A stretch of DNA of 19,705 bases, taken from Clostridia bacterium. GTDB lineage: Bacteria; Bacillota; Clostridia; Christensenellales; Aristaeellaceae. The translations under genes and the position numbers were made by a program. The number at the start of each line of letters is the position of its first letter. The first letter of the stretch is position 1. The notes beneath the pieces were generated by a model. The model was not told the DNA's origin. It was given only the letters and a program-made list of their open reading frames with translations, and made no database searches. The stretch lies in assembly GCA_045599485.1 (NCBI GenBank), contig JAZRWA010000043.1, positions 1 through 19,705 on the forward strand. The letters are read 5' to 3'. Positions 3,384 to 19,705 of this stretch are shown here, one piece after another.

Positions 3384-3403
3384 GGCAGAGGATTCCTTTC
3401 GTA

Positions 3404-5165: not shown

Positions 5166-5226
5166 GCTGTTGCTCCGTCACGATTTCTTGAGTGAGCCCC
5201 TGGGGGAGTGACCCCGCCGGACCCAT

Positions 5227-5262
5227 GAAAAACCGGTGCCGACGGCTTTGTGTCGGCACCGG
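5227..5262 (-). terminator. Intra-operon intrinsic terminator between metQ and metN
   Basis: On the minus strand, CCGGUGCCGAC (5262-5252) pairs with GUCGGCACCGG (5243-5233) over 11 bp around an 8-nt loop. UUUUUC follows (plus gaaaaa, 5227-5232). Confidence 0.8.
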
Positions 5263-5273
5263 CGCGATCAAAA

Positions 5274-6194: not shown

Positions 6195-6218
6195 GATGTT
6201 TTGCTCCTTTAATATGAT

Positions 6219-6302
6219 TTATCGTTTGGGATGCGCGGTGTGAATGACGGAAAACGGGATGCGGCGCATTCGGTCCGTCGCGCGGCCAAAGTGCTGCTTC
6301 AT
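6219..6302 (-). CDS. Leader sORF2, 27 aa: MKQHFGRATDRMRRIPFSVIHTAHPKR. The stop is TAA, 24 nt before the metQ ATG.
   Basis: GAAAGGAGGAAG is present, with GGAGG (6315-6311) placed 8 nt before ATG 6302. The sORF sits between the leader terminator and metQ. I recognise no homology. Confidence 0.4.
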   Translation of the reverse strand: MKQHFGRATDRMRRIPFSVIHTAHPKR

Positions 6303-6322
6303 CGGGTCTTCCTCCTTTCTTT

Positions 6323-6362
6323 CGTAAAAAATAAGGGATCAGCGTGTGCTGTCCCTTATTTC
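6323..6362 (-). terminator. Strong intrinsic terminator (attenuator) inside the met operon leader
   Basis: The minus-strand RNA reads AAAUAAGGGA-CAGC-ACAC-GCUG-A-UCCCUUAUUU followed by UUUAC. That is about a 14-bp stem with one bulged A and a 4-nt loop, running into a run of U. Confidence 0.8.
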
Positions 6363-6377
6363 AGGAATGCCGGGGTT

Positions 6378-6470
6378 TCAGTTCCGGCAGCAGACACACG
6401 GCAAATAACGGCACATGCACATGTACATGCCCCAACGCATCATCTTGCCGGACGCGGTGCGATTGACCAT
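6378..6470 (-). CDS. Leader sORF1, 30 aa: MVNRTASGKMMRWGMYMCMCRYLPCVCCRN (6 Met, 5 Cys). The stop is TGA.
   Basis: GGAAGGAGG (6487-6479) lies 8 nt before ATG 6470, immediately downstream of a sigma-A-type promoter and immediately upstream of the terminator. Codons 15-20 form the tandem hexamer repeat ATGTAC ATGTGC ATGTGC. Confidence 0.55.
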   Translation of the reverse strand: MVNRTASGKMMRWGMYMCMCRYLPCVCCRN

Positions 6471-6503
6471 GATGTCTGCCTCCTTCCGAAATAAGGTAGA
6501 ATT

Positions 6504-6533
6504 ATCTTACCATATGGATGATAGATACGTCAA
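6504..6533 (-). promoter_or_regulatory. Sigma-A-type promoter of the met operon leader
   Basis: On the minus strand: -35 TTGACG (6533-6528), an 18-nt spacer ending in TGg, and -10 TAAGAT (6509-6504). The predicted 5' end near 6497 lies just upstream of the sORF1 SD. Confidence 0.6.
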
Positions 6534-6595
6534 GCATTACGGATGTATTTTGCCTGTTTTTACAAAATATTCGTCTTTCTGTACAGCAAAAACAG

Positions 6596-6625
6596 TTGTG
6601 CCGCTGCCCGGTTCCCTGTTATAAT
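6596..6625 (+). promoter_or_regulatory. Sigma-A-type promoter of the ATP-grasp / MBL gene pair
   Basis: -35 TTGTGC (6596-6601), an 18-nt spacer, and an extended -10 TGtTATAAT (6617-6625). It lies 30 nt upstream of ATG 6656. Confidence 0.6.
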
Positions 6626-6655
6626 GAAAAAAAGCGGTGCAAAAGGAATGACGGT

Positions 6656-7870
6656 ATGAATTTTATTTTTATTTCGCCCCATTTTCCGCGCAGAACGTGG
6701 CAGTTTTGCGAACGGTTGAAGAGAAACGGGGTAACTGTGCTGGGCATCGGCGACGCGCCCTATGACGCGCTGGATCCGAATGTACGGGACAGCCTGAACG
6801 AATACTATTATCTGCCGAGCCTGGAAAACTATGACGCGGTGTACCGGGCGGTGGCGTTCTTTGCGTTCAAATACGGGCGGATCGACTGGATCGAATCCAA
6901 CAACGAGTACTGGCTGTAGCAGGACGCCATGCTTCGAAGTGATTTTAACATTCAAAGCGGTGTGAATGCGAAGGATATCCGCTATTTCAAGAGCAAAGCC
7001 GCCATGAAGGAAAAATATGCTCTGGGACAGATCCCGACCGCCCGCAGCCATGTGATCGAAACGGAAGCGGATACCCGGGAATTTATCACTTCGGTTGGTT
7101 GGCCGGTCATTATCAAACCGGAAAACGGCGTGGGCGCGGCGGACACCTACAAGATCCATAATGAATCGGAGCTGCAGGCGTTTTTTGAAGACCAGCCCGA
7201 GGGGCCCTGCGTGTGCGAGGAGTTCATTGAGGGCGATATCTGCTCCTATGATGCCATCGTGGACAGCCGGGGCGAGCCGCTGTTTGAATCAATGACGGTG
7301 TGGCCGCCTTCCAGTGCCGATATCGTCAACCTCGATCTGGACCTGAGCTATTATGTCAGCCCCACGATGCCGGACAGCCTGCGGACGCTGGGACGGCGTA
7401 CCGTCAAGGCCTTCCATGTGTTCAGCCGCTTCGTTCATCTGGAGTTTTTCAGGTTGACCCATGACCGGGAAGGGCTGGGCAGGCAGGGCGATTTTGTTGC
7501 CCTGGAGGTCAATATGCGCCCCGCGGGCGGCTACACGCCCGATATGATCAACTATGCGCACAGCACCGACGTGTACCGTATCTGGGCGGACATGGTGACC
7601 TTTGATCGCACGGAATGGCAGCCGGCCGACCGGGAATACTGCTGCGCCTACGCGGGGCGAAAGAACAGCAAAAGGTATCTGCTCAGTGATGAGGAAATAT
7701 GGAACCGCTGGGGCGGTAAGATCACAATGTGCGAGGAGATGCCGCCCATGATGGTGCGTACCATGGGCAACAGAATGTACACAGCAAGGCTGGACAGCGT
7801 GGAGGAGGCGCAATGCTTCATCCGCGATGTGCTGAAAACGGAGGGGGACAAGCATGAACCGGAGGAGTAA
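6656..7870 (+). CDS. ATP-grasp domain protein (404 codons) with an in-frame TAG at 6917-6919. The final stop is TAA.
   Basis: Track ORFs 6518-6919 and 6929-7870 share a frame and are separated only by TAG (…IESNNEYWL*QDAMLRSDFNI…). The upstream piece is a pre-ATP-grasp region. The downstream piece is the ATP-grasp fold (WPVIIKPENGVGAADTYKI, EEFIEGDICSYD, ALEVNMRPAGG) and has no SD or start of its own. ATG 6656 was chosen because the TATAAT box lies inside the longer ORF. Confidence 0.8.
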
Positions 7871-8720
7871 TCGGTGGATCGCCCTGCTGCTGGTATTCGT
7901 GCTTTTGCTGCCATGCGGCGGCATCGCGGAGCAGCTGGTGTTTGACAAGGGGAAGGCACCGGATTTTGAGAAAGGAACGCCTACGCTGGACATCCACGTG
8001 GTGCCCATGATCGGCGGCGACTGCCTGATCCTGCGCTGCGACGGACAGGTGATGCTGGTGGACATGGGCAAGGAGAACGAGTACGAGACCATCAAGTCGG
8101 AGTTTGAACGGCTGGGAATTGATAAAGTGGATATCGCCTTCAACAGCCATCCGCATGATGACCATCTGGGCAGCATGATACACATTGCCGAGGACTATCC
8201 GGTGGGGCTGTTCCTGACGGCTTTTGATGAGGATTATGATGACGGCTTCTGCGATCAGGCGGAGACCATTTCATTCCTGCGGGAAAAGAATGTGCCCATC
8301 CGCCGCGTGGGGGATATGGATACCTTTGAATTTGCGTCCTGCCATTGCACGGTGTATCAGATCCTGGATGTTCCCGTCTGCAATTACATGAGCGCGGTGC
8401 TGATGATCGAGTACGGCGAGAGGCGCGTGCTGATGACAGGGGATTTTATTGATGAGGTGCAGCGGGAGCTGGCACAGAGCGGGCATGACATCCGGGCGGA
8501 GATCGTCAAGCATCCGCATCACGGGCTCCAACCCATGTATCATGATTTCATCCGTGCCATCGCCCCTTAGTACGCGATCATCACCCACAACTACAGCTGC
8601 TCCGCGGTGGCGAGGGACCGGCTGAATGATTACCGCATCCGCTATGGCATTGCCGCGTGGGGTCCGCTGCATCTGGCGACGAACGGGGCATACTGGCTGG
8701 TGGATCAGCTGCGCAACTGA
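7854..8720 (+). CDS. Secreted ComEC-type MBL-fold metallo-hydrolase (288 codons) with an in-frame TAG at 8568-8570. The final stop is TGA at 8718-8720.
   Basis: It has the signal-like N-terminus MNRRSNRWIALLLVFVLLLPCGG, then LILRCDGQVMLVDMG, HPHDDHLGS and KHPHHG. After the TAG the same frame continues for 49 codons as YAIITHNYSCSAVARDRLNDYRIRYGIAAWGPLHLATNGAYWLVDQLRN, the usual C-terminal end of this family. GGAGGGGG precedes ATG 7854. Confidence 0.8.
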
Positions 8721-8722
8721 AC

Positions 8723-8751
8723 TTGCCAAGCACGTAAAAAAGCGTTATAAT
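8723..8751 (+). promoter_or_regulatory. Near-consensus sigma-A promoter
   Basis: -35 TTGCCA (8723-8728), a 17-nt spacer, and -10 TATAAT (8746-8751). Confidence 0.7.
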
Positions 8752-8785
8752 ATCACTGTTTTTGTTTGGAAGGGAGGGACACGGA

Positions 8786-9079
8786 ATGAAGGGAAGACTG
8801 CTGTTTGCCCTGGCTTTCTGTGCCCTGATCCTGTTGGGCGTGCGTGCCCTGCCCAAGACAGGCGAGGTCAAAGCGCCGCTGCTGCTTCGGGTATCCAACC
8901 GATGCGCGCCTGCCGCGGCCTTGCCCGAAAGCAGCCCCGAGGTGACCGTTACGGAGGTGCGGGGCGCTGTGCCTGTTACGGCACCGCAGCGGAGCACGGC
9001 CTGTACCATCCCGCAGCTGCGCATGCCCTTCTATCGTATGGCGTACGGTGTGTTCCATCTGCAGGATAAAGCCGGGTAA
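8786..9079 (+). CDS. Small hypothetical secreted or membrane-anchored protein, 97 aa. The stop is TAA.
   Basis: ATG 8786 follows GGAAGGGAGGGA and the promoter above. The N-terminus MKGRLLFALAFCALILLGVRALP looks like a signal peptide. I recognise no family. Confidence 0.5.
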   Translation: MKGRLLFALAFCALILLGVRALPKTGEVKAPLLLRVSNRCAPAAALPESSPEVTVTEVRGAVPVTAPQRSTACTIPQLRMPFYRMAYGVFHLQDKAG

Positions 9080-9135
9080 CGGCGATGCGGTTCCGTAAAA
9101 GCATTTCAATACATTACATGAGGAGAAAAATCAAA

Positions 9136-10440
9136 ATGAAAAACAATGCTGTCAACAAGATCATCAGCATCGTGGTGCTGGTGGCTCTGCTGGGCGCCAC
9201 GGTGTTTGGCGCATATGCCGGCCTGATGGGTCTGAATACCCAGATGGTGACCGTCCGTGAGAATGGCACCGATGTGCAGAAGGCTCTGTACCGCATCGTG
9301 TCGTTCATTCCCAACACCCTGAACAACAGCTGGCAGGAAGTCGTTCAGCCCGATACCACTTTGGGCGGCGGCTACAGCTATGTGCTGACTGCTCCCGACG
9401 GCGTGAAGGCCGAAGACATGAACAAGGCCGCACAGGTGATCCGTGCCCGTGCCGACATGCTGGTCGGCGGTGCCGTGACCAAGGTGGAGGGCAGCACTCT
9501 GACCCTGACCGTGCCCGGCAAGGACTATGACACCTCCATCGCCGCTGTGCTGCAGCCCACCGGTCAGGCGACCTTTGCCCTGTATGACGATGATACCGGC
9601 CTGTTCGGCGACTCTCTGCTGGATGGCAGCATCGCGGACGGCACCTACTACTACCGGGGCGAAAATGGCTACAACATTCAGCTGCACCTGAGTGCGAAGG
9701 GCGCCGCTGCCCTGCGTCAGGTCATTGCCGAACACAGCTTTGAATACCTGTACCTGCTGCTGGATGGCGAACCCGTTGGCTACAGCCCCCTGTATGACGG
9801 CATCATTACCGAAGGCAGCACCGTGGACTTTGCGTCTCCCGATGCCAGCAGTGCTTTTGTGACCGCGGTCACGATGCGCGGCGGCGCCCTGCCCTGCGTG
9901 CTGACGATGATCTCTGATGGTGCGGCGGCGGCGTCCTCCTCCCTGATGAATGTGGGCATCATCGTGTTTGCCTGCCTGCTGCTGCTGGCTTGCGTGTACA
10001 TGATCGCCCGCAGCGTCAAGGCGGGTCTGCTGGGCACCTGGGCGCTCATCGCCGGCGTGGTGCTGGCGGCTCTGCTGAATGCGCTCATCGTGGTGGATAC
10101 CATCTGGGTCGTCACCGTGCTGAGCGGCATCGTGGTGTTCCTGTGCCTGGTTGTGATGGCCGTTAGCGTGGTGATGGTGGTCAATAAGGCTGCCGGCTTC
10201 GTCCGTGCCGGCCGTGAGACCGCTGCCTCCGTTTCTGCCGCCATCGGCAAGAACGGCAAGCTGGTGGCTATGGTGAACGGCATTCTGATGGCCATCGGTC
10301 TTATCCTGATGTTTGCCTTCCAGAGAAACGCCGTGGGCATCATGGGCCGTGTCGTGGCCGCCGATGCGCTGGTGACCCTGGTCATGGTGTTCATTTTCCT
10401 GCCGGTGGTAACCGCCTGCATCAAGTCTCTGCGTAAGTGA
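9136..10440 (+). CDS. SecD-family (protein-export membrane protein) homologue, divergent in its transmembrane core. The stop is TGA.
   Basis: An N-terminal TM is followed by a P1-head-like domain (LGGGYSYVLTAP, VIRARADMLVGG, LTLTVPGKDY, YLYLLLDGEPVGYSPLYDGIITEG, MRGGALPCVL) and five C-terminal TMs. Its position upstream of recJ-relA-dtd matches Firmicute secDF synteny. GAGGAG lies 10 nt before ATG 9136. Confidence 0.7.
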   Translation: MKNNAVNKIISIVVLVALLGATVFGAYAGLMGLNTQMVTVRENGTDVQKALYRIVSFIPNTLNNSWQEVVQPDTTLGGGYSYVLTAPDGVKAEDMNKAAQVIRARADMLVGGAVTKVEGSTLTLTVPGKDYDTSIAAVLQPTGQATFALYDDDTGLFGDSLLDGSIADGTYYYRGENGYNIQLHLSAKGAAALRQVIAEHSFEYLYLLLDGEPVGYSPLYDGIITEGSTVDFASPDASSAFVTAVTMRGGALPCVLTMISDGAAAASSSLMNVGIIVFACLLLLACVYMIARSVKAGLLGTWALIAGVVLAALLNALIVVDTIWVVTVLSGIVVFLCLVVMAVSVVMVVNKAAGFVRAGRETAASVSAAIGKNGKLVAMVNGILMAIGLILMFAFQRNAVGIMGRVVAADALVTLVMVFIFLPVVTACIKSLRK

Positions 10441-10445
10441 TTTTC

Positions 10446-10474
10446 GTTTCCCCGGGGCCGCTCCCCGGGGAAAC
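10446..10474 (+). other. Perfect 12-bp GC-rich hairpin after the SecD-like gene, with no U-tract
   Basis: gtttccccgggg (10446-10457) and ccccggggaaac (10463-10474) pair around the loop ccgct. Confidence 0.6.
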
Positions 10475-10480
10475 CTCTTG

Positions 10481-10517
10481 AGGCAAGGCGTTCGAAAGGG
10501 CGTTTTGCCTTCTTTTC
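10481..10517 (+). terminator. Possible intrinsic terminator
   Basis: aggcaa (10481-10486) pairs with ttgcct (10505-10510) and is followed by tcttttc. The loop is large, so the prediction is weak. Confidence 0.4.
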
Positions 10518-10532
10518 AATCAAAGGAGTTCT

Positions 10533-12785
10533 ATGCAGCAGCTGATTCAAAGAGGAAGAACGGGAAGTATTCCTGGGAGGAAAGATGTTCTGTCCCGGCT
10601 GCTTTTCGCGCGCGGAATCGAAACGCCTGAGGAGGCGCAGCGATTTTTGCATCCCTCGACCGAACAGCTGCTGGATCCTATGACGCTGCCCGGGGCGGCA
10701 CAGGCGGTGGAGATCATTCGCCGCCACATTGCCGATGGCAGCCGCATCACCGTCTACGGCGATTATGATTGCGACGGCGTCTGTGCCACGGCCCTGCTGA
10801 CGGAGATTTTGACGCAGGCGGGGGCCGGGGACGTGCGCAAGTACATCCCCTCCCGCGAGGAGGAAGGCTATGGCCTCAACTGCGCTGCGGTGGAAAAGAT
10901 CGCCACGACCGGCGGACTGCTCATCACCGTGGACTGCGGCATCACCAGCGTGACCGAGACGGCTTTGGCAAAAAGCCTGGGCATGGAGGTCATCATCACC
11001 GATCATCATACCATTCCCGATCCGGTGCCGGAGGCAGATGCCATTGTGCACAGCGCGCTGGAGGGATACGGCTGTCCCTTCCTGTGCGGAGCGGGTACGG
11101 CCTGGAAACTCGGCTGCGCGCTGCTCGGGCACATTGCTTGGGATCAGATCGAACTGGCGGCGCTGGCGACCGTGGCGGATATGGTGCCGCTGCGGGGAGA
11201 AAACCGCGTCATTGCCGCTTTGGGTCTGGAAAAGGCTGCGCACACCGAACGCCCGGGGCTGAAGGCCTTGATGGAAATTTCCAAGGTGCCCTTTGATAAG
11301 CCCATCAGCGGAACGGATACCGGCTTTAAGCTGGGACCGCGGATCAATGCCTGCGGACGGTTAAAATCGGCGGACATTGCCTTTGAAATGCTCACCACGC
11401 AGGATACTGCCGTGGGCAGAGCCCGTGCCGAAGAAGCAAACCGGCTCAACACCGAACGCAAAGACGCGGAAGAAAGCATTCTGCAACAGGCGGAAAGCCA
11501 ATTGCGGCAGCTGAACCTGTGCCGGGAGCAGGCGGTGGTTATTGCGGGCAAGGAGTGGCCCAAGGGCGTGGTGGGGCTGGCGGCCGGACGCATCAGCAAC
11601 AATTATGGCTACCCGACGGTAGCACTGAGCCTGCACGATGGACTGGCGGAGGGCAGTGCCCGTGCCGCCAGCGGGGTGGATATCTATCGGGCCCTGACGG
11701 AGTGCGGCGATATCTTTGTCAAGTTTGGCGGCCATCCGGCGGCAGCGGGCATGACCCTTCGGGAAGAAAATGTGCCGCTGCTGAGGGAGCGGCTCAACGA
11801 AGCCGTACGAAAGCAGCTGAACGGACGGGCGCCCATGCCGGTGCTGGAATATGACTGTGAGCTGCGCCTGAATGAGATCAGCGAAACGCTGATCGAGGAG
11901 CTGGCACAGCTGGAGCCCTGCGGAACGGGCAATCCTTCCCCGGCGTTTTTAATGCAGGACGTCAATGTGATCAAAACAGAGATCATGGGCGCGAAACGCA
12001 GCCATCTGCGCATGACCCTCGAGGAGGACGGACTGCAGATGGGTGCGGTCGCCTTTGGTATGGCGGAGTGGGCAGATCGTTTGGGCGACGGCGCCGGGTT
12101 CATCTGTGTGCCAACAGTCAACAGCTTCCGCGGCAGCAACACGCTGCAGTGCATGGTGCAGGCCATTACGGCAGGCGGTGGCTTTCATCTGACCCGGTCG
12201 ATGGAAGGGGAGCGGATGATCAGGCTGCTCAAGGAACTGTGCCAGGGCCCCGCCATGAAGGCGGACCCGGGGGAACTGCCCGAAACCATAGCCGACCAGG
12301 GCACATTGCTGGTCTGCCATACGGTGGAGACAGCGCGTGCGCTGAAACAGCTGTATCCGCATCTGGATGCGGAAGCGGCATCCATCCCCGATCCGAGAGC
12401 GTACAGCCGTATCTGGCTCTGCGACCGCTTCGAAAAGCAGGGACCGTATGAGCACATCGTGCTGGCGGACGGCGCTGTGGCGCCGGAGGAGATCTTCCGT
12501 CTGCACAGCCTGTATCCCGAGGCGAAGCTGACCGTGCTGCCGCAATCGCAGAACCTGAAGCTGCTGTTGGACAGCCTGCGGCCCACCAAAGATGAAATGA
12601 GAGCGCTCTATGTTGAAATAAAAGAAAACAGGGCGCGTCTGGACACGATGAAAAAGCGCATGGCGGCGGAGATACTGGGTCATATGGGCCTGATCAACGT
12701 GAAATCGCTGACGCTGAAAGAAATAAAAAAAGCCGATCCCGCACAGGACGGCCTGTATCGTTTGTTGAACCCGGAGAGTGATTGA
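10533..12785 (+). CDS. recJ: Single-stranded-DNA-specific exonuclease RecJ. The stop is TGA.
   Basis: DHH motifs DYDCDGV, TVDCGI and ITDHH are present, along with the DHHA1 motif GGHPAAAG. AAGGAG lies 6 nt before the ATG. Confidence 0.95.
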   Translation: MQQLIQRGRTGSIPGRKDVLSRLLFARGIETPEEAQRFLHPSTEQLLDPMTLPGAAQAVEIIRRHIADGSRITVYGDYDCDGVCATALLTEILTQAGAGDVRKYIPSREEEGYGLNCAAVEKIATTGGLLITVDCGITSVTETALAKSLGMEVIITDHHTIPDPVPEADAIVHSALEGYGCPFLCGAGTAWKLGCALLGHIAWDQIELAALATVADMVPLRGENRVIAALGLEKAAHTERPGLKALMEISKVPFDKPISGTDTGFKLGPRINACGRLKSADIAFEMLTTQDTAVGRARAEEANRLNTERKDAEESILQQAESQLRQLNLCREQAVVIAGKEWPKGVVGLAAGRISNNYGYPTVALSLHDGLAEGSARAASGVDIYRALTECGDIFVKFGGHPAAAGMTLREENVPLLRERLNEAVRKQLNGRAPMPVLEYDCELRLNEISETLIEELAQLEPCGTGNPSPAFLMQDVNVIKTEIMGAKRSHLRMTLEEDGLQMGAVAFGMAEWADRLGDGAGFICVPTVNSFRGSNTLQCMVQAITAGGGFHLTRSMEGERMIRLLKELCQGPAMKADPGELPETIADQGTLLVCHTVETARALKQLYPHLDAEAASIPDPRAYSRIWLCDRFEKQGPYEHIVLADGAVAPEEIFRLHSLYPEAKLTVLPQSQNLKLLLDSLRPTKDEMRALYVEIKENRARLDTMKKRMAAEILGHMGLINVKSLTLKEIKKADPAQDGLYRLLNPESD

Positions 12786-12787
12786 AA

Positions 12788-14977
12788 ATGAGTACCGCTT
12801 ATGAATGCATGTCGCTGGAACAAATGGTGGCGCGCATGCGTCACTTTCATCCGAACGCCGATGCCGCGCTGATCGAAAAGGCCTATGCCTTTGCCGAAAA
12901 GGTACACGGCGGTCAGCGCCGTTTGAGCGGCGAACCCTATATTGTGCATCCCGTTTATGTAGCCAGCATCCTGACCGAGATCGGCATTGACGCCCCGACG
13001 GTAGCGGCGGGTCTTTTGCACGACACGGTGGAGGACTGCAAGGATGTGACGCTGGAGACCATCGAGAGCGAATTCGGTCCCGAGGTCGCGCGTCTGGTGG
13101 ACGGCGTGACCAAGCTGAGCAAGCTGGACTTTACCAACCGTGAGGAGCAGCAGGCGGAGACGCTGCGCAAAATGATCCTGGCCATGGGCAAGGATATCCG
13201 TGTGGTGCTGATCAAGCTGGCGGACCGCCTGCACAACATGCGCACCCTCAAATTCAAATCGCCTGAACGGCAGGTGGCCATTGCCCACGAAACGCTGGAT
13301 ATTTATGCGCCGCTGGCGCACCGCCTTGGCGTTTACACCATCAAGGCGGAGCTTTAGGACCTGTCGCTGCGCTACATCGATCCGGAAGGCTATCAGGAAG
13401 TGGCGCGCAAGGTGGGCATGAAGCGGGCTGAACGCGAGGCCAACATCCAGATCGTAATGGAGGAGCTGTCGCAGAAGCTGACGGAGATGGGCATCAAGCA
13501 TGACATCGCCGGCCGCCCCAAGCATTTGTACAGCATTTACCGCAAGATGGTGCTGCATAACAAGCCGTTTGAGCAGATCTACGATCTGATTGCCATCCGC
13601 GTGCTGGTGCGCTCCATTCCCGAATGCTATACCGTGCTGGGCGTGTGCCATACGCTGTGGTCGCAGGTGCCGGGACGCTTCAAGGATTATATCTCGGTGC
13701 CCAAGAACAACATGTATCAGTCGCTGCATACCACGGTGGTGGGCGGCCGCCGCATGCCCTTCCCCTTTGAAATTCAGATCCGTACCTATGAAATGCACCA
13801 TGTGGCGGAATACGGCATCGCCGCGCACTGGCGCTACAAGGAGGGCGGCGGCGCGGAGGACGGCTTTGACAAAAAGCTGTTCTGGCTGCGTCAGATCCTT
13901 GACTGGCAGAACGAGACCCGGGACAGTCAGGAGTTCCTGGACGGCCTGAAGACGGATCTGTTTTCCGAGCAGGTATTTATCTTTACGCCCAAGGGCGACA
14001 TCATCGATATGCCCCGCGGTGCCACCCCGCTGGACTTTGCCTATCGTGTGCACAGCGCCGTGGGCAACAGCTGCGTGGGCGCCAAGATCAACGGCCGCAT
14101 CGTGCCGCTGGATACCCCGCTGGAAACGGGCGACCGCGTGGAGATCATGACCTCCTCCAGCTCCAAAGGCCCCAGCATGGACTGGCTCAAGATCGTTAAA
14201 ACGCAGGCTGCCCGCAGCAAGATCCGCCAGTATTTCCGCAGGGAGCTGCGCGGCGAGAACGTGGAAAAGGGCAAGGATCTGCTGGACCGCGAGGCCAAGC
14301 GCCGCGGACTGGTGCTGGGTTCGCTGCTCAAGGACGAATATGTGCAGCCGCTGCTGCAGCGCTACTGCTTTGCCGATATTGAAGATATTTACGGCGCGGT
14401 GGGCTCCGGCATGGTGGCTTCGGCTTATGTGATCTCCCGACTGTTTGAGGAACAGCACAAGAGTCAGGAGGCGCAGGAAGTCAAGCTGCCGCCTCAGCTG
14501 ACCGAGGAAAAGCAGGCGCAATTGCAGCAGGGTAAGCCCACACAGGGCATTTACGTGGAAGGCGATTCCGGCTTGCTGGTGCGCTTTGCCCGCTGCTGCA
14601 GTCCTGTACCCGGCGATGACATTGTGGGCTATATCACGCGCGGACGCGGTGTGACGGTGCACAAGTGCGACTGCGTCAACGCCAATAACGAGCCGGAACG
14701 TCGGGTCAATGTGTCGTGGGCGCATCAGAATACCGGACGGTTCAATACCACGCTCAGCGTGATCGCCTACGACCACGAGGGGCTGCTGGGCGAAATGACC
14801 GTTTATGTGCAGGATAGCGGTGCCCCCATCAGCGCGGTCAACGTCAAGGTCAATCCCAACAAGACCTGCTCCATCACCATGGTCATTCAGGTCGAGAGCA
14901 GAGAACAGGTGGACGCCGTGCTCCGCCGGCTGCAGAAGCGGCCGGACGTCATCGAGGCGTTCCGCATCGGAGGCTGA
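12788..14977 (+). CDS. relA: Bifunctional (p)ppGpp synthetase/hydrolase Rel (729 codons) with an in-frame TAG at 13355-13357. The final stop is TGA.
   Basis: The HD hydrolase domain (HDTVED) is followed in the same frame after the TAG by the synthetase domain ([22 protein letters not shown]), a TGS domain ([28 protein letters not shown]) and a C-terminal ACT-like domain. The summed length equals a normal long Rel protein. Confidence 0.9.
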
Positions 14978-14979
14978 GT

Positions 14980-15429
14980 ATGCGCGCAGTAGTACAACGT
15001 GTCACCGAGGCATCCGTAAAGGTGAACGGCGAGGTCGTGGGCAGCATCGGTCAGGGGCTGATGGTGCTGCTGGGCGTCAAGACGGGGGATACCGAAAAGG
15101 ACGCCCTGTATATGGCGGACAAAATTCTCAAGCTGCGCATCTTTGAAGATGAGAACGGCAAAATGAACCGTTCGCTGAAAGATATCGGCGGCAGTGTGCT
15201 GTGCGTGAGCCAGTTTACGCTGCTGGGGGACTGCCGCGGTCAGAACCGCCCGGGCTTTACGCAGGCAGAGGCGCCGGAGAGGGCCAACGAGCTGTATGAG
15301 CGTGTCTGTGCCCGCATGCGCGAACAGGATGTGACCGTGGAAACGGGCATTTTCCGGACCGATATGAAGGTGGCGCTGGTCAATGACGGCCCCATCACCA
15401 TTCTGGTGGACAGTGAAAAAACATTTTAA
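14980..15429 (+). CDS. dtd: D-aminoacyl-tRNA deacylase. The stop is TAA.
   Basis: The product is 149 aa with [16 protein letters not shown] and the NRPGF motif. A GGAGG inside the relA 3' end precedes the ATG. Confidence 0.95.
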
Positions 15430-15441
15430 GGAAACACAAAC

Positions 15442-16023
15442 ATGCTGATTGAAAAGCTTTCCCTGGGGGAACTGATGACCAACTGCTATCTGGTAGCCCG
15501 CGATGAAACGAGTCCGCTGGTGGTGATCGATCCCGGGGATGATGCGAGCCGCCTGCGTCAGACCATCGGGCAGCGTCCGGTGGCGGGCGTGCTGATCACG
15601 CACGCTCATTTTGACCATATTCTGGGGCTGGAAGCGCTCACAGGCGCGCCCGTCTATGTGCATGAAGCGGATGCGGAATCGCTGTGCAATGAAACGGCGG
15701 CGGCTGGTTATGGCCGTGTGAACCGTGTGCCGGCGACCGATACCGTGCATGAGGGGGATACGATCTCCCTCGGCGGGCTGGAGTTTACGGTGCTGCATAC
15801 GCCGGGGCATACGCCCGGAAGTGTGTGCTATCAGTGCGGCGATACGCTTTTCAGCGGCGATACATTGTTTGCCACAGGCTGGGGGCGTACCGACCTGCCC
15901 GGCGGTGATGAGGCGGCGATGATGAAATCGCTGCGGCGCCTGCTGCGGCTGCCAGCCAAACTGCGTGTGCTGCCCGGTCATGGTGCCGGCACCACGCTGG
16001 CCTGCATCAGGGGGAAAGAATGA
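15442..16023 (+). CDS. MBL-fold metallo-hydrolase (glyoxalase II-like). The stop is TGA.
   Basis: The THAHFDHILG motif, HTPGHTPGS and a C-terminal PGHG are present. The position after dtd is conserved in Clostridia. Confidence 0.9.
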   Translation: MLIEKLSLGELMTNCYLVARDETSPLVVIDPGDDASRLRQTIGQRPVAGVLITHAHFDHILGLEALTGAPVYVHEADAESLCNETAAAGYGRVNRVPATDTVHEGDTISLGGLEFTVLHTPGHTPGSVCYQCGDTLFSGDTLFATGWGRTDLPGGDEAAMMKSLRRLLRLPAKLRVLPGHGAGTTLACIRGKE

Positions 16024-17477
16024 AAACAGTATCCCTATTTACCGCATAGACGGCGCTTTCCAACGATATGGCGGAGGTGCTGCGCCTGTTTATGGGCAGC
16101 ATTGAGCTGCTTGTCAACGAAGCGGGCGGCGAGATCACCCTGCGCCATGAGGAAAGCATTGCGGACAATGTGCGTACCGTTCGTGTGACGGACGGAGAAC
16201 AGGCAGCGGAGACCCGGGAAGCGATCACCGGGGACGCGGTGGTGGATAAACGGCTGCGTCGCCGTCAGGCCAAGCTGGGGGTATACAGCCTGATGAAGCG
16301 CCGCTTTGGTTATGCTCCGCCGTGGGGCAGCCTGACGGGGATCCGTCCCACCCGGCTGCTGTATGCCGGGCTGGAAAAAGGACTGTCCATGGAGGCGGCG
16401 GCGGACGAGGTGCGGCGTACCTTTGACGTGAGCGAGGAAAAGCTGGCGCTGATGCACGAGATCGTTCAGGTGCAGCAGCGGGAGATTCCGATGCCGGACA
16501 CGGACATGGCGGATATCTATATCGGCATTCCCTTCTGCGTTTCCCGCTGTGCCTACTGCAGCTTTTTATCCGGCGAGGTGGGCAAAGGTACACAGCTGGA
16601 GCCCTATACCGCCGCTCTTGAAAAGGAGATCGCCCGGGGCATTCGTCTGGCGGACGAGGCGGGTTATCGCCTGCGTGCCTTTTATATGGGCGGCGGAACG
16701 CCTACGGCACTGCCGGCATCGCTGCTGGACAGGGTGCTGACCGCGGCGAGACCGCTCATGGAGCGCTGCGGCGAGGTAACGGTGGAAGCGGGACGTCCCG
16801 ATACCATTGACCGGGAAAAGCTGCAGGTGCTGCTTGACCATGGGGTGACCCGCATTTCGGTCAATCCGCAGACGGGACACGACCGCACGCTGGAGAGGAT
16901 CGGTCGGCGTCATACCGTGGCACAGACGGAGCAGGCATACCTGCTGGCACGCGGCATGGGCTTTCATCACATCAATATGGATCTGATCGCCGGCCTGCCC
17001 GGGGAGAACGCCGACGACTTTGAGCAGACGCTGGCATGGATCAAACGTCTGGCACCCGAAAGCATGACGGTGCATACGCTGTCCATCAAGCGCAGCAGCC
17101 TGCTGCATTTGTGGGAGGCGGAGCTGCCCGACGGCGACATGGTCTCGCACATGGTGCGAGCGGGCTATGAAGCGGCGCGAAGCATGGAGATGCAGCCCTA
17201 TTATCTGTATCGCCAGAAGTACATGGCCGGCAATCAGGAAAACGTGGGCTATGCTTTGAAGGATCACAGCTGCATTTACAATGTGGACATGATGGAGGAG
17301 ACCTGCTCGGTGCTGGCCATGGGGGCCGGTGCCGCCAGCAAACGGGTCTCCAATGAAAAAGGCGTCATTCGCCGTGCCTTCAATGTGTCGGATATCCGTC
17401 AATACGTGGAACGTGTGGACGAAATGGCGGAACGCAAGGAAGCGCTGTTTTTGCGCGGAGAGGAAAGCAAATGCTGA
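16020..17477 (+). CDS. hemZ: HemZ-like oxygen-independent coproporphyrinogen dehydrogenase family radical SAM protein (485 codons) with an in-frame TAG at 16047-16049. The final stop is TGA.
   Basis: The radical SAM motif is CVSRCAYCSF, and GGGTPT is also present. The start was placed at ATG 16020, which overlaps the upstream TGA as ATGA and follows AGGGGGA. This restores the roughly 20-aa N-terminus that precedes the conserved LF. The alternative ATG 16068 has no SD. Confidence 0.8.
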
Positions 17478-18187
17478 TCTGGGTTGCCGCGACCTTTTTG
17501 TCTTCCATGGTGAAGGGGCTGTGCGGCTTTGCAAACGCGATCGTATTCAATGCCATGCTGAACTTTGCCAATAACCCGGTGGAGATCTCACCGGTGTGCC
17601 TGCTGATCGGCGCACCCACCAATATGGTGCTCAGCTGGAAGGGACGGAAGCTGATCCGCAAGGAGCTGGTGGCGCTTCCGGTGCTGCTGATCCTGATCGG
17701 CAGCTTTCTTGGCGCCATGGCTTTGAAAAACGGTGATGCGCGTATCATCAAAATGATCTTTGGCTTTTTTATTGCGGCGATGGGCTGCAGTATGCTGCTG
17801 AAACGCAATAAAAAAGAACAGAAAAAGCCGGGGAAGCTTTTTCTGTACGGTGTTGGACTTTTGTCCGGCCTGTTGTGCGGCCTGTATGGCGTCGGGGCGA
17901 TGATGAGCGCGTATTTCAGCCGTGTGACGGAGGATACCGCCAGCTTCAAGGCCAATATGTGCTTTGTGTTTGCGATCGAAAACGTGGTACGGCTGGTGAC
18001 TTATGCGGTATCCGGACTGATGACCGCCGGGGTACTGCTGAAAGGCGCGGTGCTGCTGCCCGTATCGTTCCTGGGACTGGCTGCCGGCATGCTGATGGCA
18101 AAAAAACTGGATGAAAAGAAGGCAAAGCTGCTCATCTATGTGCTGCTGATCATTTCCGGTGTGGTGCTGATCGCACAGAATCTTTAA
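17471..18187 (+). CDS. TauE/SafE (DUF81) family anion/sulfite exporter-like membrane protein. The stop is TAA.
   Basis: The 238-aa product is polytopic and hydrophobic, with two halves joined by a basic loop (KRNKKEQKKPGK). Its ATG overlaps the hemZ 3' end by 7 nt. Confidence 0.8.
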   Translation: MLIWVAATFLSSMVKGLCGFANAIVFNAMLNFANNPVEISPVCLLIGAPTNMVLSWKGRKLIRKELVALPVLLILIGSFLGAMALKNGDARIIKMIFGFFIAAMGCSMLLKRNKKEQKKPGKLFLYGVGLLSGLLCGLYGVGAMMSAYFSRVTEDTASFKANMCFVFAIENVVRLVTYAVSGLMTAGVLLKGAVLLPVSFLGLAAGMLMAKKLDEKKAKLLIYVLLIISGVVLIAQNL

Positions 18188-19014
18188 GTTTCCATGCCGA
18201 TAAACACGGCATTGCGCTCTCCGTAATAGCTGGTCAGGCCGCGCGCCTCGGCGATGCGGCCCTCCGCGGCGGGGAAGCGGCTTCTCAGGGCATCCAGCAC
18301 CGTGCGGGCAAGATCCTCGTTGCAGGTGTGGGTCACCAGCAGCTTTTTGGGCGTCAGCGCCTGTTTTTCCAGCTGACGCAGGATCTCGGCAATGGCGCCC
18401 TTATCGTTGCGGCATTTGGACAGCGGCTGAAGGGTGCCTTCCGCCGACGCCATGCCCATGATGCGGATGCCCAGCACGCCCACGGCGGCGGCGACCGCCT
18501 TGCTGACACGGCCGTTTTGCGCAAAATTATGCAGGGAACGGAAAATAAAGAAGATCCTGGTCTTCTTCATATAGGCTTCCACTTCGGCACAGATGTGCTC
18601 GAACGGAAGCCTTTTTTGTTTCAGCTCGTTGATCTTTTCAACAATGAGCCGCAGGGCGGGGCCGGTCGTCAGCGAATCGAATACATGGATGCGGCAGTTC
18701 GGGTGGGATTCCAGATAGATCTCACGGGCATTCATCGCGGCGTTGTAGGTGCCGGAGATGGTGCCGGTCAGCACGGGCACATAGATCTCGTCTGCCCCCT
18801 CAAAGGCATTCAGCCACAGACCGGTACCGGGGCAGGCGGTGTGGGAGGGCCCCTTGAAAGCAGCCAGGGTATCCAGCATATCGTTGACGTTCAGGTCGGC
18901 GTTGTCTGTCCATTCATTTTCACCGGCGCTGATGGTCAGCGGGACGGAAACAAAATCGGCATTGTCCAGATGCGTGAGATCACAGGAAGAGTCACTGACG
19001 ATGCGTGTAATCAT
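18184..19014 (-). CDS. DegV family fatty-acid-binding protein. The stop is TAA.
   Basis: The N-terminus MITRIVSDSSCDL is typical of DegV, and the 276-aa length is typical too. The track ORF starts at TTG 19032; I preferred ATG 19014, which follows GGAGG (19023-19019). Confidence 0.9.
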   Translation of the reverse strand: MITRIVSDSSCDLTHLDNADFVSVPLTISAGENEWTDNADLNVNDMLDTLAAFKGPSHTACPGTGLWLNAFEGADEIYVPVLTGTISGTYNAAMNAREIYLESHPNCRIHVFDSLTTGPALRLIVEKINELKQKRLPFEHICAEVEAYMKKTRIFFIFRSLHNFAQNGRVSKAVAAAVGVLGIRIMGMASAEGTLQPLSKCRNDKGAIAEILRQLEKQALTPKKLLVTHTCNEDLARTVLDALRSRFPAAEGRIAEARGLTSYYGERNAVFIGMET

Positions 19015-19042
19015 AATGCCTCCATGAAACAAATGCTCAGAG

Positions 19043-19129
19043 TCAAAAACACTTTCATCGGTTTTTGAATAACCGTTGACGGGATTATATCACGGTTTTT
19101 GAAAATTGTAAACAAGCTTTTCAAAAACC
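19043..19129. repeat. Repeated 8-11 bp motif GGTTTTTGAA / TTCAAAAACC in the degV-DUF1836 intergenic region (candidate operators)
   Basis: cggtttttgaa occurs at 19059-19069 and 19093-19103. The inverted copy ttcaaaaacc is at 19120-19129, and a partial inverted copy tcaaaaac is at 19043-19050. Confidence 0.6.
19084..19112 (-). promoter_or_regulatory. Sigma-A-type promoter of degV
   Basis: On the minus strand: -35 TTTACA (19112-19107), a 17-nt spacer, and an extended -10 TGaTATAAT (TATAAT at 19089-19084). Confidence 0.65.
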
Positions 19130-19132
19130 TGT

Positions 19133-19161
19133 TTGCAATGCGGGCGTGGATGTTATACAAT
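19133..19161 (+). promoter_or_regulatory. Sigma-A-type promoter of the DUF1836 gene
   Basis: -35 TTGCAA (19133-19138), a 17-nt spacer, and -10 TACAAT (19156-19161). Confidence 0.6.
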
Positions 19162-19183
19162 AGACCCGTGGAAGGAGCATTGT

Positions 19184-19705
19184 ATGAACGAAGCATTTGA
19201 AAGCCGCCTGCGGCAGACGGTGGAGGGGTTTCATCTGCCGCGCTATACGGAGATCCCCGATATCGGTCTATATCTGGAGCAGGCGGTGCGCTGGATCAAC
19301 CGTTACACCCCCATTTTTTCCGAAAATGAGGTTACGGCCAGTATGATCTCCAATTATGTCAAGCACCATATCATTCCGGGCCCCAAGGGCAAAACCTACA
19401 GCCGGGACGCGCTGGGGCACCTTCTGTTTGTCTGTCTGATGAAGACCACCATGCCCCTGGAAGAGGTTCGCTTCATGTTTCGCATGCAGCAGCGCAGCTA
19501 TGAGCTTCGGGTGGCGTATGATTATTTTTGCGAGGAATTTGAAAATCTGCTGGCCGTTGCCTTTGGTCTGAAACAGCAGCCCGACCCGGTGGGGCATGAC
19601 AGCACGGTGGAAAAGGAGCTGCTGCGTTCGGCACTGCTTTCGGCGGCATATCACATCCGTCTGCAGCAGTATATCCGGCTTCTCAAAGAGAGTGCGGAGT
19701 CGTAA
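19184..19705 (+). CDS. DUF1836 domain protein, commonly paired with degV. The stop is TAA at the window end.
   Basis: ATG 19184 follows GGAAGGAG, and the promoter lies inside the longer track ORF. The 173-aa product contains FHLPRYTEIPDIGLYLEQ and TASMISNYVKH, which I recall as DUF1836-like. Confidence 0.75.
   Translation: MNEAFESRLRQTVEGFHLPRYTEIPDIGLYLEQAVRWINRYTPIFSENEVTASMISNYVKHHIIPGPKGKTYSRDALGHLLFVCLMKTTMPLEEVRFMFRMQQRSYELRVAYDYFCEEFENLLAVAFGLKQQPDPVGHDSTVEKELLRSALLSAAYHIRLQQYIRLLKESAES

What the first reader, a model, noticed from the sequence alone, without database searches (positions are those of the whole stretch)
13340..13402. relA is interrupted by TAG at the position of an invariant Glu in the hydrolase-synthetase linker
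The sequence reads ...[28 protein letters not shown].... From memory, long RelA/SpoT/Rel proteins have K-x-E-L-E-D/E at this point (B. subtilis IKWELEDTALRYLNP, E. coli RelA LKWELEDYCFRYLHP). The TAG therefore aligns with a conserved Glu, one G-to-T step from GAG. If the TAG were a true stop, the cell would make a 189-aa HD-only fragment. It might also make a synthetase-TGS-ACT fragment restarting at GTG 13400, which has GGAAGG 10 nt upstream. That split would cut through a conserved helix. This is the most informative of the four sites for the identity of the decoded residue (Glu or Gln-like) and for telling read-through apart from a split Rel.
Basis: partly seen in the sequence, partly recalled or inferred. 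Interest (0 to 1): 0.7.

Follow-up and report, generated by a model that had tools for sequence, protein, structure and literature searches.

The report
In-frame TAG decoded, probably as glutamate
The TAG "stop" inside the stress-alarmone gene rel is one of about sixteen in-frame TAGs found only in a few related, uncultured gut Clostridia, so these bacteria very probably read TAG as an amino acid (best guess glutamate), which has not been described for any bacterium.

Summary
A 729-codon bifunctional rel gene (12788-14977) has one in-frame TAG at 13355-13357. It aligns with a Glu that is invariant in 133 of 133 fetched loci and in B. subtilis, mycobacterial and E. coli structures.

It is not an isolated lesion. 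The window holds four in-frame TAGs in otherwise intact genes, and no gene ends in TAG. Four further genomes, all related at PPDK or synteny level (Horse_feces223 MAG and three ENA assemblies), carry 12 more at other positions. There are no in-frame TGA or TAA codons and no frameshifts. In contrast, 71 outgroup loci (84,738 aligned codons) have no in-frame stop at all and use TAG as a terminator 16% of the time.

The rel dN/dS is 0.015 before the TAG and 0.022 after it. No shared context or RNA structure follows the TAGs. The SD-like GGAAGG before GTG 13400 is simply Pro-Glu-Gly coding and also occurs in intact relatives.

Best reading: TAG is a sense codon across this lineage and Rel is made full length. 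Conserved columns point to Glu (rel, the M24 metal ligand, RecN, ATP-grasp, MBL). Gln, pyrrolysine or ambiguous decoding remain possible. The tRNA(CUA), the RF1 status and protein-level proof could not be examined.

The parts
12788..14977 (+). Complete bifunctional long RSH gene (rel). It has the HD hydrolase, RelA_SpoT synthetase, TGS, AH/RIS and ACT domains, and is 729 codons long if the TAG is read through.
   Evidence: Pfam hits on both halves. phmmer against PDB gives E = 8e-202 to B. subtilis Rel, with the alignment running straight across the TAG. It is 98% identical to the full-length Rel P0121 of the sister genome.
13355..13357 (+). In-frame TAG at codon 190 of rel, aligned with an invariant Glu (GAG in the nearest relatives).
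   Evidence: Glu in 133 of 133 loci.
13384..13402 (+). I judge it not to be a dedicated signal.
   Evidence: The sequence is present. The same stretch encodes Pro-Glu-Gly in relatives with an uninterrupted rel and is equally or more SD-like there (CCGGAGGGC in L003).
6656..7870 (+). ATP-grasp gene of 404 codons with an in-frame TAG at 6917-6919 (...NNEYWL*QDAMLR...).
   Evidence: Full-length homologues of 393-404 aa span the TAG. The column is Glu in 19 of 20 outgroup homologues and CAG (Gln) in sister L006.
7854..8720 (+). Metallo-beta-lactamase-fold gene of 288 codons with an in-frame TAG at 8568-8570 (...AIAP*YAIITH...).
   Evidence: The sister L006 has a 286-aa uninterrupted orthologue with CAG at this codon. 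In 79 distant homologues the column is Glu 33, Gln 10, with Glu in the 8 nearest.
16020..17477 (+). HemN-like radical SAM gene of 485 codons with an in-frame TAG at 16047-16049 (codon 10). Its ATG overlaps the upstream stop (ATGA).
   Evidence: Relatives start at the same ATGA overlap and align across the TAG (MKTVSLFTA*TALSNDMAEV against MSTVSLYAASETLLSDMAEV). The codon is CAG in sister L005 and Ser or Ala in outgroups.

Best explanation
In the organism this contig comes from, and in a small group of related uncultured gut Clostridia, TAG is not a termination signal. It is a rarely used, apparently disfavoured sense codon. The ribosome therefore reads through TAG 13355 and makes a normal full-length, roughly 83-kDa bifunctional Rel. 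The inserted residue is most likely glutamate, which would leave the invariant Glu of the K-x-E-L-E-D helix unchanged.

Shown: in-frame TAGs are lineage-restricted, are the only kind of in-frame stop present, and occur in many genes. TAG terminators are absent. The genes concerned are under purifying selection on both sides of the TAG. No local recoding signal is shared.

Inferred: the machinery. I expect a tRNA with anticodon CUA, plausibly derived from tRNA-Glu and charged by GluRS. A non-discriminating GluRS tolerant at anticodon position 36 would make this easy. The only support for that pathway is a GatA/GatB operon with an AspRS-GatC fusion in L145, a non-recoded locus with a similar PPDK. 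I also expect loss or weakening of RF1.

My confidence that TAG is translated here is about 0.85. My confidence that it is Glu is about 0.55-0.6. The confidence figure given for this explanation (0.6) refers to the whole statement, including Glu.
For: (1) Window: four in-frame TAGs in intact genes with conserved sequence on both sides, and none of 16 genes ends in TAG.

(2) Other genomes carry in-frame TAGs of their own at different sites.
- L005 (Horse_feces223): DegV twice and DUF1836.
- L006: recJ.
- L141: RluA-like, RecN and three in giant surface proteins.
- L142: M24B peptidase, YkuD and an SH3 protein.
- Total 16, plus one ambiguous, in about 83 kb. There are no in-frame TGA or TAA codons and no frameshifts.

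(3) Controls.
- 71 outgroup loci with 84,738 aligned codons have no in-frame stop.
- Two loci from the same ENA accession series, L144 and L145, have none in 12 and 21 genes and end genes in TAG.
- By hand: if all 8 events in window/L005/L006 orthologues fell in the clade's 11% share of codons by chance, P would be about 3e-8.

(4) If these were random nonsense mutations, TAG would make up only 56-62% of them. P(all TAG) is then 5e-5 to 3e-4.

(5) TAG ends 54 of 338 (16%) outgroup orthologues but 0-1 of about 50 genes in the TAG-bearing genomes. By hand, P is about 0.008.

(6) rel dN/dS against L005 is 0.015 upstream and 0.022 downstream of the TAG, with dS about 0.4-0.5.

(7) There is no common flanking context and no common downstream structure; z-scores are +1.7, -1.0, +1.5 and -2.9.

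(8) Evidence for Glu, from outgroup columns.
- rel: E 131/131.
- ATP-grasp: E 19/20.
- MBL1: E 33/79, and the 8 nearest are all E.
- M24B: the TAG lies on the Glu of GIRIEDD, which is E406, a metal ligand of E. coli aminopeptidase P (position; ligand role from established knowledge).
- RecN: E in D. radiodurans and in L144.
- A crude Codetta-style log-odds gives Glu +7.1 nats. The next best are Ser -4.1 and Gln -4.5. The result survives leaving out rel or M24.
Against: - No tRNA gene lies in any TAG-bearing locus. RF1, pyl genes and proteomes could not be examined.
- None of the 8 TAG sites in regions shared by two of these genomes is shared. TAG is also about 5-10 times rarer than a neutral synonym of GAG or CAG should be (4 TAG against 229 GAG and 164 CAG; expectation by hand). 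So decoding may be inefficient, ambiguous or recent.
- Sister genomes have CAG (Gln) at three of the four window sites.
- One conserved column does not fit Glu: the R/K of the RluA-family R.v.K.Y motif.
- Other sites align with Trp, Ala or Ser, or with variable columns.
- The relationship of L141 and L142 to the window rests only on PPDK (87-90% nt). L145, which is equally similar, is not recoded.
- Only about 83 kb was sampled.
Confidence: 0.6

Rival explanations
1. TAG is a lineage-wide sense codon that encodes glutamine, as in code 15 of recoded phages and many eukaryotes. It would be read by a tRNA-Gln(CUA) or through G-U pairing by tRNA-Gln(CUG). Rel would then carry Glu-to-Gln at the invariant position.
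For: The sister genomes have CAG at three of the four window TAG sites. CAG-to-TAG is a single transition. Gln is the usual outcome of UAG reassignment and of natural amber suppression (established knowledge; PMC8629427, PMC9523058).
Against: No TAG site lies in a Gln-dominated outgroup column. Five of nine scored columns are Glu-dominated, including an invariant Glu in Rel and a metal-ligand Glu in M24B. The log-odds for Gln are 11.6 nats below those for Glu.
Confidence: 0.13
2. TAG is an unassigned or leaky codon. RF1 would be lost or weakened without a dedicated tRNA, so TAG is read slowly and ambiguously by near-cognate tRNAs (Gln, Glu, Lys, Tyr, Trp). A weak suppressor would give the same picture. 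In-frame TAGs would then be mildly deleterious mutations that persist for a while, and Rel would be made full length at reduced yield with a mixed residue.
For: TAG sites turn over fast (0 of 8 shared) and are strongly under-represented. The aligned residues (E, Q, K/R, W) are mostly one-step neighbours of TAG. TAG terminators are absent, as expected if TAG terminates poorly. RF1-free E. coli with an unassigned UAG is viable (PMC4434889).
Against: Glu columns are over-represented against the mutational expectation of 15-25% (5 of 9 scored columns). Two sites fall on functionally critical Glu residues, where mixed decoding should be selected against. Roughly a quarter of the genes carry such a codon.
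Confidence: 0.12
3. TAG encodes pyrrolysine genome-wide. This would be a bacterial counterpart of archaeal Genetic Code 34, using pylTSBCD.
For: The pattern resembles Code 34 archaea: internal TAGs in many unrelated genes, positions not conserved between relatives, TAG still rare, and few or no TAG terminators (10.1101/2024.09.30.615893). Some Firmicutes do encode Pyl.
Against: TAG sites are enriched on Glu columns, including an invariant Glu and a metal-ligand Glu, where a bulky Lys derivative would be disruptive. [quoted passage not shown] No pyl gene or methyltransferase was seen in about 83 kb, though that is a weak test.
Confidence: 0.07
4. The TAG is a true stop. Either rel is a recent pseudogene, or it is split into a stand-alone HD hydrolase (189 aa) and a synthetase-TGS-ACT protein restarting at GTG 13400 or ATG 13418.
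For: This is how the public record annotates it (P0123 of 189 aa and P0069 of 519 aa). Small stand-alone alarmone hydrolases and synthetases exist as families (established knowledge). A very recent mutation would leave no trace in dN/dS.
Against: It would have to be one of about 16 independent TAG-only disruptions confined to these genomes. The cut falls inside a conserved helix. No relative is split. The SD-like motif is ancestral coding sequence. dN/dS is 0.02 on both sides.
Confidence: 0.05
5. It is a sequencing, assembly or binning artefact.
For: The source is a MAG contig, and the reads could not be inspected.
Against: The same TAG-only pattern appears at different sites in six assemblies from at least two sources. 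Loci from the same ENA accession series (L144, L145) lack it. There is no shared sequence context that would suggest a systematic base-calling error. An artefact would not remove TAG terminators.
Confidence: 0.02

Closest known systems
Archaeal Genetic Code 34 (all TAG = pyrrolysine; Kivenson et al., bioRxiv 10.1101/2024.09.30.615893)
   Same: This is a prokaryote-wide reinterpretation of TAG as a sense codon. It was detected as internal TAGs flanked by homologous sequence in many unrelated genes. TAG positions are not conserved between relatives, TAG remains rare, and termination relies on TAA and TGA.
   Different: It is known in archaea only and depends on the Pyl machinery. Here the host is a bacterium, and the TAG columns point to a standard amino acid (Glu), not to a residue with no column preference. 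The density also seems higher: about a quarter of the sampled genes carry a TAG, against at most 191 proteins per Code 34 genome.
TAG-to-Gln recoding (code 15) in crAss-like, Lak and other gut phages
   Same: TAG is used as a sense codon by prokaryote-associated genomes from gut habitats, and it is found through in-frame TAGs in conserved genes (PMC9523058, PMC7886860, 10.1101/2021.08.26.457843).
   Different: Those are phage genomes, which often carry their own suppressor tRNA. Their hosts use the standard code, and the residue is Gln. Here the genes are chromosomal housekeeping genes (rel, recJ, dtd, PPDK, RecN) and the columns favour Glu.
Bacterial UGA reassignments (code 4, UGA = Trp; code 25, UGA = Gly)
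   Same: These are lineage-restricted reassignments of a stop codon in bacteria. Their recognised signatures are in-frame stops at conserved columns, loss of the codon as a terminator, a cognate tRNA and loss of the matching release factor (PMC13462651, PMC8629427).
   Different: They affect UGA and RF2, usually in small, AT-rich or symbiotic genomes. Here the codon is UAG (hence RF1) in a genome of about 58% G+C. The papers I read, up to August 2026, list only UGA reassignments in bacteria.
UAR-to-Glu nuclear codes (peritrich ciliates, Blastocrithidia nonstop)
   Same: They are a precedent for a UAG codon meaning glutamate (PMC12153298 abstract; peritrich code 30 from my own knowledge).
   Different: They are eukaryotic, UAA is reassigned together with UAG, and the release-factor system (eRF1) is different.
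RF1-deleted or amber-suppressor E. coli (C321.deltaA-type strains, supE-type suppressors)
   Same: These are bacterial cells in which UAG no longer terminates efficiently and is read by a suppressor or by near-cognate tRNAs. TAG terminators have to be removed or tolerated (PMC4434889, PMC11903333).
   Different: They are laboratory constructs or single suppressor alleles, not a natural lineage-wide state with purged TAG terminators.

Membership tests
Long RSH (Rel/RelA/SpoT) bifunctional alarmone enzyme | Domain order HD hydrolase, RelA_SpoT synthetase, TGS, AH/RIS, ACT in one polypeptide. | tested here: met
   Pfam finds HD_4 on 12782-13354, and RelA_SpoT, TGS, RelA_AH_RIS and ACT_4 on 13358-14974. 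This is one reading frame interrupted only by the TAG.
Long RSH (Rel/RelA/SpoT) bifunctional alarmone enzyme | Catalytic motifs of both the hydrolase (HD...ED) and the synthetase (conserved EIQIRT region) are intact. | tested here: met
   LLHDTVED and FEIQIRT are present and align with B. subtilis Rel 6yxa.
Genome-wide stop-codon reassignment (alternative genetic code) | In-frame occurrences of the codon at homologous positions in many unrelated, otherwise intact genes, restricted to one lineage. | tested here: met
   16 in-frame TAGs occur in 5 genomes, against none in 84,738 outgroup codons and none in the L144/L145 controls. Only about 83 kb was sampled.
Genome-wide stop-codon reassignment (alternative genetic code) | The codon is no longer used as a terminator. 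| tested here: met
   0-1 of about 50 gene ends in the TAG-bearing loci are TAG, against 16% in outgroup orthologues.
Genome-wide stop-codon reassignment (alternative genetic code) | The residue at aligned columns is consistent, implying a single decoded amino acid. | tested here: inconclusive
   Glu dominates 5 of 9 scored columns, with log-odds of +7.1 nats. However, one site lies on a conserved R/K column and others align with W, A or S.
Genome-wide stop-codon reassignment (alternative genetic code) | A cognate tRNA with anticodon CUA. | not testable with these tools
   No tRNA gene lies in the window or in the TAG-bearing loci. The rest of these genomes could not be fetched.
Genome-wide stop-codon reassignment (alternative genetic code) | Loss or alteration of the release factor that reads the codon (RF1, prfA). 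| not testable with these tools
   prfA is not in any fetched locus, and no tool retrieves a named genome.
Pyrrolysine decoding (Pyl cassette, Code 34) | Presence of pylS, pylT and pylBCD. | not testable with these tools
   None was seen among the called genes of the fetched loci, but this covers only a few per cent of a genome.
Pyrrolysine decoding (Pyl cassette, Code 34) | TAG positions show no preference for any standard amino-acid column. | tested here: not met
   The sites are significantly enriched on Glu columns, including catalytic or invariant Glu residues.
Site-specific programmed recoding (SECIS/PYLIS-like element or read-through context) | A shared downstream structure or sequence context at the recoded stops. 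| tested here: not met
   The 13 contexts listed show no shared motif. Downstream folding z-scores are +1.67, -1.01, +1.51 and -2.87. There are no Rfam hits.
Split alarmone system (stand-alone SAH hydrolase plus separate synthetase) | Two genes, each with its own start signal, with the arrangement conserved in relatives. | tested here: not met
   All 120 listed homologues except the source's own fragment are single chains. The sister genome has GAG. The SD-like motif is ancestral coding sequence.
Pseudogene | Relaxed constraint (raised dN/dS), together with a mixture of frameshifts and different stop codons. | tested here: not met
   dN/dS is 0.015 and 0.022 on the two sides of the TAG. Only TAG occurs and there are no frameshifts. 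A very recent event cannot be excluded for a single gene.

The most novel reading that the evidence does not exclude
A natural bacterial genetic code in which UAG is a sense codon for glutamate, presumably with a tRNA-Glu-like tRNA(CUA) and loss or weakening of RF1. It would be present in a genus-level group of uncultured herbivore-gut Clostridia with normal G+C content. This would be the first UAG reassignment to a standard amino acid in a cellular prokaryote, and possibly one caught at an early or inefficient stage, because TAG codons are rare and turn over fast.
Probability: 0.5. Interest if true: 0.92.

Novelty: new variant of a known kind. Interest (0 to 1): 0.85.

Why it matters
- If confirmed, this would be the first bacterial lineage that reads UAG as a standard amino acid. 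The bacterial stop reassignments listed in the papers I read (to August 2026) all concern UGA. UAG is reassigned only in phages (Gln), archaea (Pyl) and eukaryotes.
- It occurs in a free-living, G+C-normal gut anaerobe, not in a reduced symbiont. That bears on how code changes start.
- The rarity and rapid turnover of TAG codons suggest an intermediate stage. This would make the 'ambiguous intermediate' and 'codon capture' models directly testable.
- There are practical consequences. Standard table-11 annotation splits or truncates roughly a quarter of the genes in these MAGs, including rel. It also lowers completeness estimates and hides the code, because coding density barely changes.
- A natural tRNA(CUA) and synthetase pair, together with an RF1-independent host, would interest people working on genetic code expansion. 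It also matters for phage-host relations, because TAG-recoded phages are common in the gut.

Tried and rejected
- An automated all-against-all 'mini-Codetta' on six-frame ORFs was swamped by conserved antisense (shadow) ORFs of these G+C-rich genes. I abandoned it and used tblastn with curated real proteins instead.
- Exact-sequence look-ups of the window's own proteins found no indexed contig. The source MAG is not among the GTDB representatives either, so its other contigs (tRNAs, prfA) could not be reached.
- The metagenome scan with Rel found no further close relatives.
- PPDK was a poor probe. It is so conserved (88-93% identity across unrelated Clostridia) that identity does not define the group. 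The two top hits were chimeric assemblies. It did nevertheless lead to L141 and L142 (TAG-bearing) and to L144 and L145 (controls).
- A methylation-motif or base-calling artefact was rejected, because the TAG sites share no context.
- A damage or mutator signature was rejected, because the implied changes are mixed: C>T, G>T and G>A.
- A PYLIS/SECIS-like element was rejected.
- The absence of TAG terminators in the window alone is only weakly informative. By hand, 0 of 16 at 13-16% gives P of about 0.06-0.1. It becomes significant only when pooled over about 50 genes.
- PDB searches gave nothing useful for YkuD and showed that the DegV columns are variable.
- Literature searches for a bacterial UAG reassignment found none. 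The library does not cover most subscription journals.
Full report
**1. The observation**

Window 13340-13402 reads ...ATC AAG GCG GAG CTT TAG GAC CTG TCG CTG CGC TAC..., that is [25 protein letters not shown]. The TAG (13355-13357) is the only interruption of a 729-codon frame running from ATG 12788 to TGA 14977.

- Pfam places an HD hydrolase domain before the TAG. After it come the RelA_SpoT synthetase, TGS, AH/RIS and ACT domains.
- A phmmer search of PDB aligns straight across the TAG to B. subtilis Rel (E = 8e-202), to the mycobacterial enzyme and to E. coli RelA.
- The column is Glu in 16 of 16 close homologues and in 133 of 133 fetched loci.
- The nearest relatives have GAG at the codon, or GAA in two cases.
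- The public record from which the window comes annotates two fragments, of 189 aa and 519 aa.

**2. The TAG in rel is not alone**

Treating TAG as sense gives three more long frames in the window.

- An ATP-grasp gene with a TAG at 6917.
- A metallo-beta-lactamase-fold gene with a TAG at 8568.
- A HemN-like radical SAM gene with a TAG at 16047. Its true start (ATG 16020, overlapping the preceding stop as ATGA) is fixed by comparison with relatives.

In every case full-length homologues span the TAG. None of the 16 real genes in the window ends in TAG. There is no tRNA gene and no Rfam match in the window.

**3. Relatives**

The source genome itself is not indexed. Two sister genomes, 87-89% identical at the nucleotide level, cover most of the window between them.

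- L005 (= L008) is MAG 'Clostridia bacterium Horse_feces223', GCA_024404275.1.
- L006/L007 come from ENA assembly ERZ27247129.

At the window's four TAG sites the sisters have GAG (rel) and CAG (the other three).

The sisters also carry in-frame TAGs of their own where the window has ordinary codons.

- L006 has one in recJ, where the window has TGG.
- L005 has two in DegV, where the window has Glu and Ala.
- L005 has one in DUF1836, where the window has Glu.

Two further assemblies reached through PPDK show the same thing.

- L141 (ERZ27234651) has TAGs in an RluA-family synthase, in RecN and three in giant surface proteins. Every gene call that ends in TAG continues in frame.
- L142 (ERZ27247138) has TAGs in an M24B aminopeptidase, in a YkuD protein and in an SH3 protein, plus one ambiguous case.

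**4. Controls and statistics**

I ran tblastn with the 16 curated window proteins against all fetched loci.

- 71 outgroup loci (84,738 aligned codons at 50% identity or more) contain no in-frame stop of any kind.
- The only in-frame stops found are the TAGs of L005 and L006.
- By hand, the chance that all 8 events fall in the clade's 11% share of codons is about 3e-8.

Two loci from the same ENA accession series serve as controls.

- L144 (G+C 45%) has no in-frame TAG in 12 genes, and one gene ends in TAG.
- L145 (G+C 57%, with PPDK as similar to L141 as L142 is) has no in-frame TAG in 21 genes, and one gene ends in TAG.
- This excludes a project-specific artefact. It also shows that the trait is not shared by everything with a similar PPDK.

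Three further figures:

- Given the window's codon usage, random single-base nonsense mutations would give TAG only 56-62% of the time. P(all TAG) is then 5e-5 to 3e-4.
- Outgroup orthologues end in TAG in 54 of 338 cases, whereas the TAG-bearing loci do so in 0-1 of about 50 genes. By hand, P is about 0.008.
- rel is under equally strong purifying selection on both sides of the TAG (dN/dS 0.015 and 0.022 against L005; dS 0.4-0.5).

**5. Local mechanisms**

- The 13 contexts listed share no motif. The base after the TAG is G six times, A four times, C twice and T once.
- The 120 nt downstream of the four window sites show no consistent structure.
It is simply CCG-GAA-GGC (Pro-Glu-Gly). Relatives with an intact rel have CCC-GAG-GGC or CCG-GAG-GGC at the same place, which are at least as Shine-Dalgarno-like.
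- There is therefore no evidence for a dedicated recoding element or for a reinitiation site.

**6. Which amino acid?**

The sister codons (three CAG and one GAG in the window; Glu, Glu, Ala and Trp at the sisters' own sites) do not separate Gln from Glu, because either assignment implies a similar number of replacements. The outgroup columns do separate them.

| Site | Outgroup column |
|---|---|
| rel | Glu 131/131 |
| ATP-grasp | Glu 19/20 |
| MBL | Glu 33, Gln 10 of 79; the eight nearest homologues all have Glu |
| M24B (L142) | TAG on the Glu of G-I-R-I-E-D-D |
| RecN (L141) | Glu in D. radiodurans and in L144 |
| radical SAM | variable (Ser, Ala) |
| recJ (L006) | variable |
| DegV (L005) | variable |
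| RluA-like (L141) | conserved Arg/Lys |

The M24B Glu is E406, a metal ligand of E. coli aminopeptidase P. The position comes from the alignment; the ligand role is established knowledge.

A crude Codetta-style sum gives Glu +7.1 nats, with Ser (-4.1) and Gln (-4.5) next. Glu still leads when rel or M24B is left out. Glu columns (5 of 9) also exceed the 15-25% expected if TAGs merely recorded their mutational precursors.

I therefore favour Glu, with real uncertainty.

**7. What does not fit**

- None of the 8 TAG sites in regions shared by two of these genomes is shared.
- TAG is several-fold rarer than a neutral synonym of GAG or CAG should be at this divergence (expectation by hand).
- TAG thus behaves as a disfavoured, short-lived codon. 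That is compatible with inefficient decoding, with residual competition from RF1, with a recent change or with ambiguous near-cognate reading.
- The Arg/Lys column in the RluA-like protein fits no candidate residue.
- The machinery (tRNA(CUA), RF1, pyl genes) could not be examined with the tools available, and there is no protein-level evidence.

**8. Comparison with what is known**

- The closest described phenomenon is archaeal Genetic Code 34, in which all TAG codons are pyrrolysine. It shows the same genomic signature: internal TAGs in many genes, non-conserved positions and rare TAG. It depends on Pyl, and its authors state that it is confined to archaea.
- Phage code 15 (TAG = Gln) concerns phage genomes, not their hosts.
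- Bacterial reassignments listed in the papers I read, up to August 2026, are all of UGA.
- UAR = Glu is known only in eukaryotes.
- Literature searches found no report of a bacterial UAG reassignment to a standard amino acid, within the limits of the library.

**9. Verdict**

- The most likely explanation is that Rel is made full length, because TAG is a sense codon in this lineage and probably means Glu.
- The rivals, in order, are TAG = Gln, unassigned or leaky TAG, TAG = Pyl, a true split or pseudogene, and an artefact.
- The finding is a new variant of a known kind (stop-codon reassignment). It would be of high interest if whole-genome and proteomic data confirm it.

Noticed in passing
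window 6917-6919, 8568-8570, 16047-16049: Three further in-frame TAGs lie in otherwise intact genes (ATP-grasp, MBL-fold, radical SAM). The public annotation evidently truncates or splits these genes, as it does rel (for example P0126 of 313 aa and P0365 of 238 aa).
   Followed up: yes
window/L005 and window/L006 overlaps (window 2521-11528 and 12821-19699): No in-frame TAG site is shared between sister genomes (0 of 8), although dS is only about 0.2-0.7. TAG codons seem short-lived and several-fold under-represented.
   Followed up: partly
window 13352-13357 and 8565-8570: In rel and in the MBL gene, the codon before the TAG also differs from the sister and ends in T (CTG GAG to CTT TAG; CCG CAG to CCT TAG). 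This could be a tandem double substitution or a coincidence.
   Followed up: no
window 16020-16023: The radical SAM start codon overlaps the stop of the upstream MBL-hydrolase gene (ATGA), as in relatives. The mechanical ORF start at 16068 lies downstream of the TAG.
   Followed up: yes
window 6518-6655: The mechanical ORF of the ATP-grasp gene starts at ATG 6518, but all homologues start at MNFIF (ATG 6656). The 46-codon upstream extension has no homologue.
   Followed up: partly
window 16047-16166: The 120 nt after the radical SAM TAG fold unusually well (z = -2.87; 2 of 200 shuffles fold as well). The other three TAG-downstream stretches do not.
   Followed up: no
L142 4330-5598: The M24B aminopeptidase with the TAG on the Glu406-equivalent ligand also has Asp in place of the Glu383-equivalent ligand (CIDVGVY against EPGLY). 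It may be a variant enzyme.
   Followed up: no
L141 1204-1206: The TAG in an RluA-family pseudouridine synthase sits on the conserved Arg/Lys of the R.v.K.Y motif. It is the one conserved-column site that fits neither Glu nor Gln.
   Followed up: partly
L001 7730-9996 and 10001-12190 (GCA_037069485.1): In this outgroup MAG, recJ is split into 644 + 111 aa and Rel has short out-of-register stretches. These look like indel-type assembly errors and are unrelated to TAG.
   Followed up: partly
P0245, P0246 (ENA proteins): These PPDK proteins of 1030 and 985 aa contain an internal duplication of about 200-300 residues. They are probably chimeric assemblies.
   Followed up: partly
L145 1-4853: This non-recoded locus with a similar PPDK encodes an AspRS-GatC fusion followed by GatA and GatB. 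That implies the indirect (transamidation) route to Asn- or Gln-tRNA, which is relevant to how a Glu- or Gln-inserting tRNA(CUA) could arise.
   Followed up: no
window 6500-19705: Nearly all genes from 6.5 kb onwards are on the + strand and the GC skew is positive. This is consistent with a leading-strand segment. Gene order recJ-rel-dtd is as in other Firmicutes.
   Followed up: no
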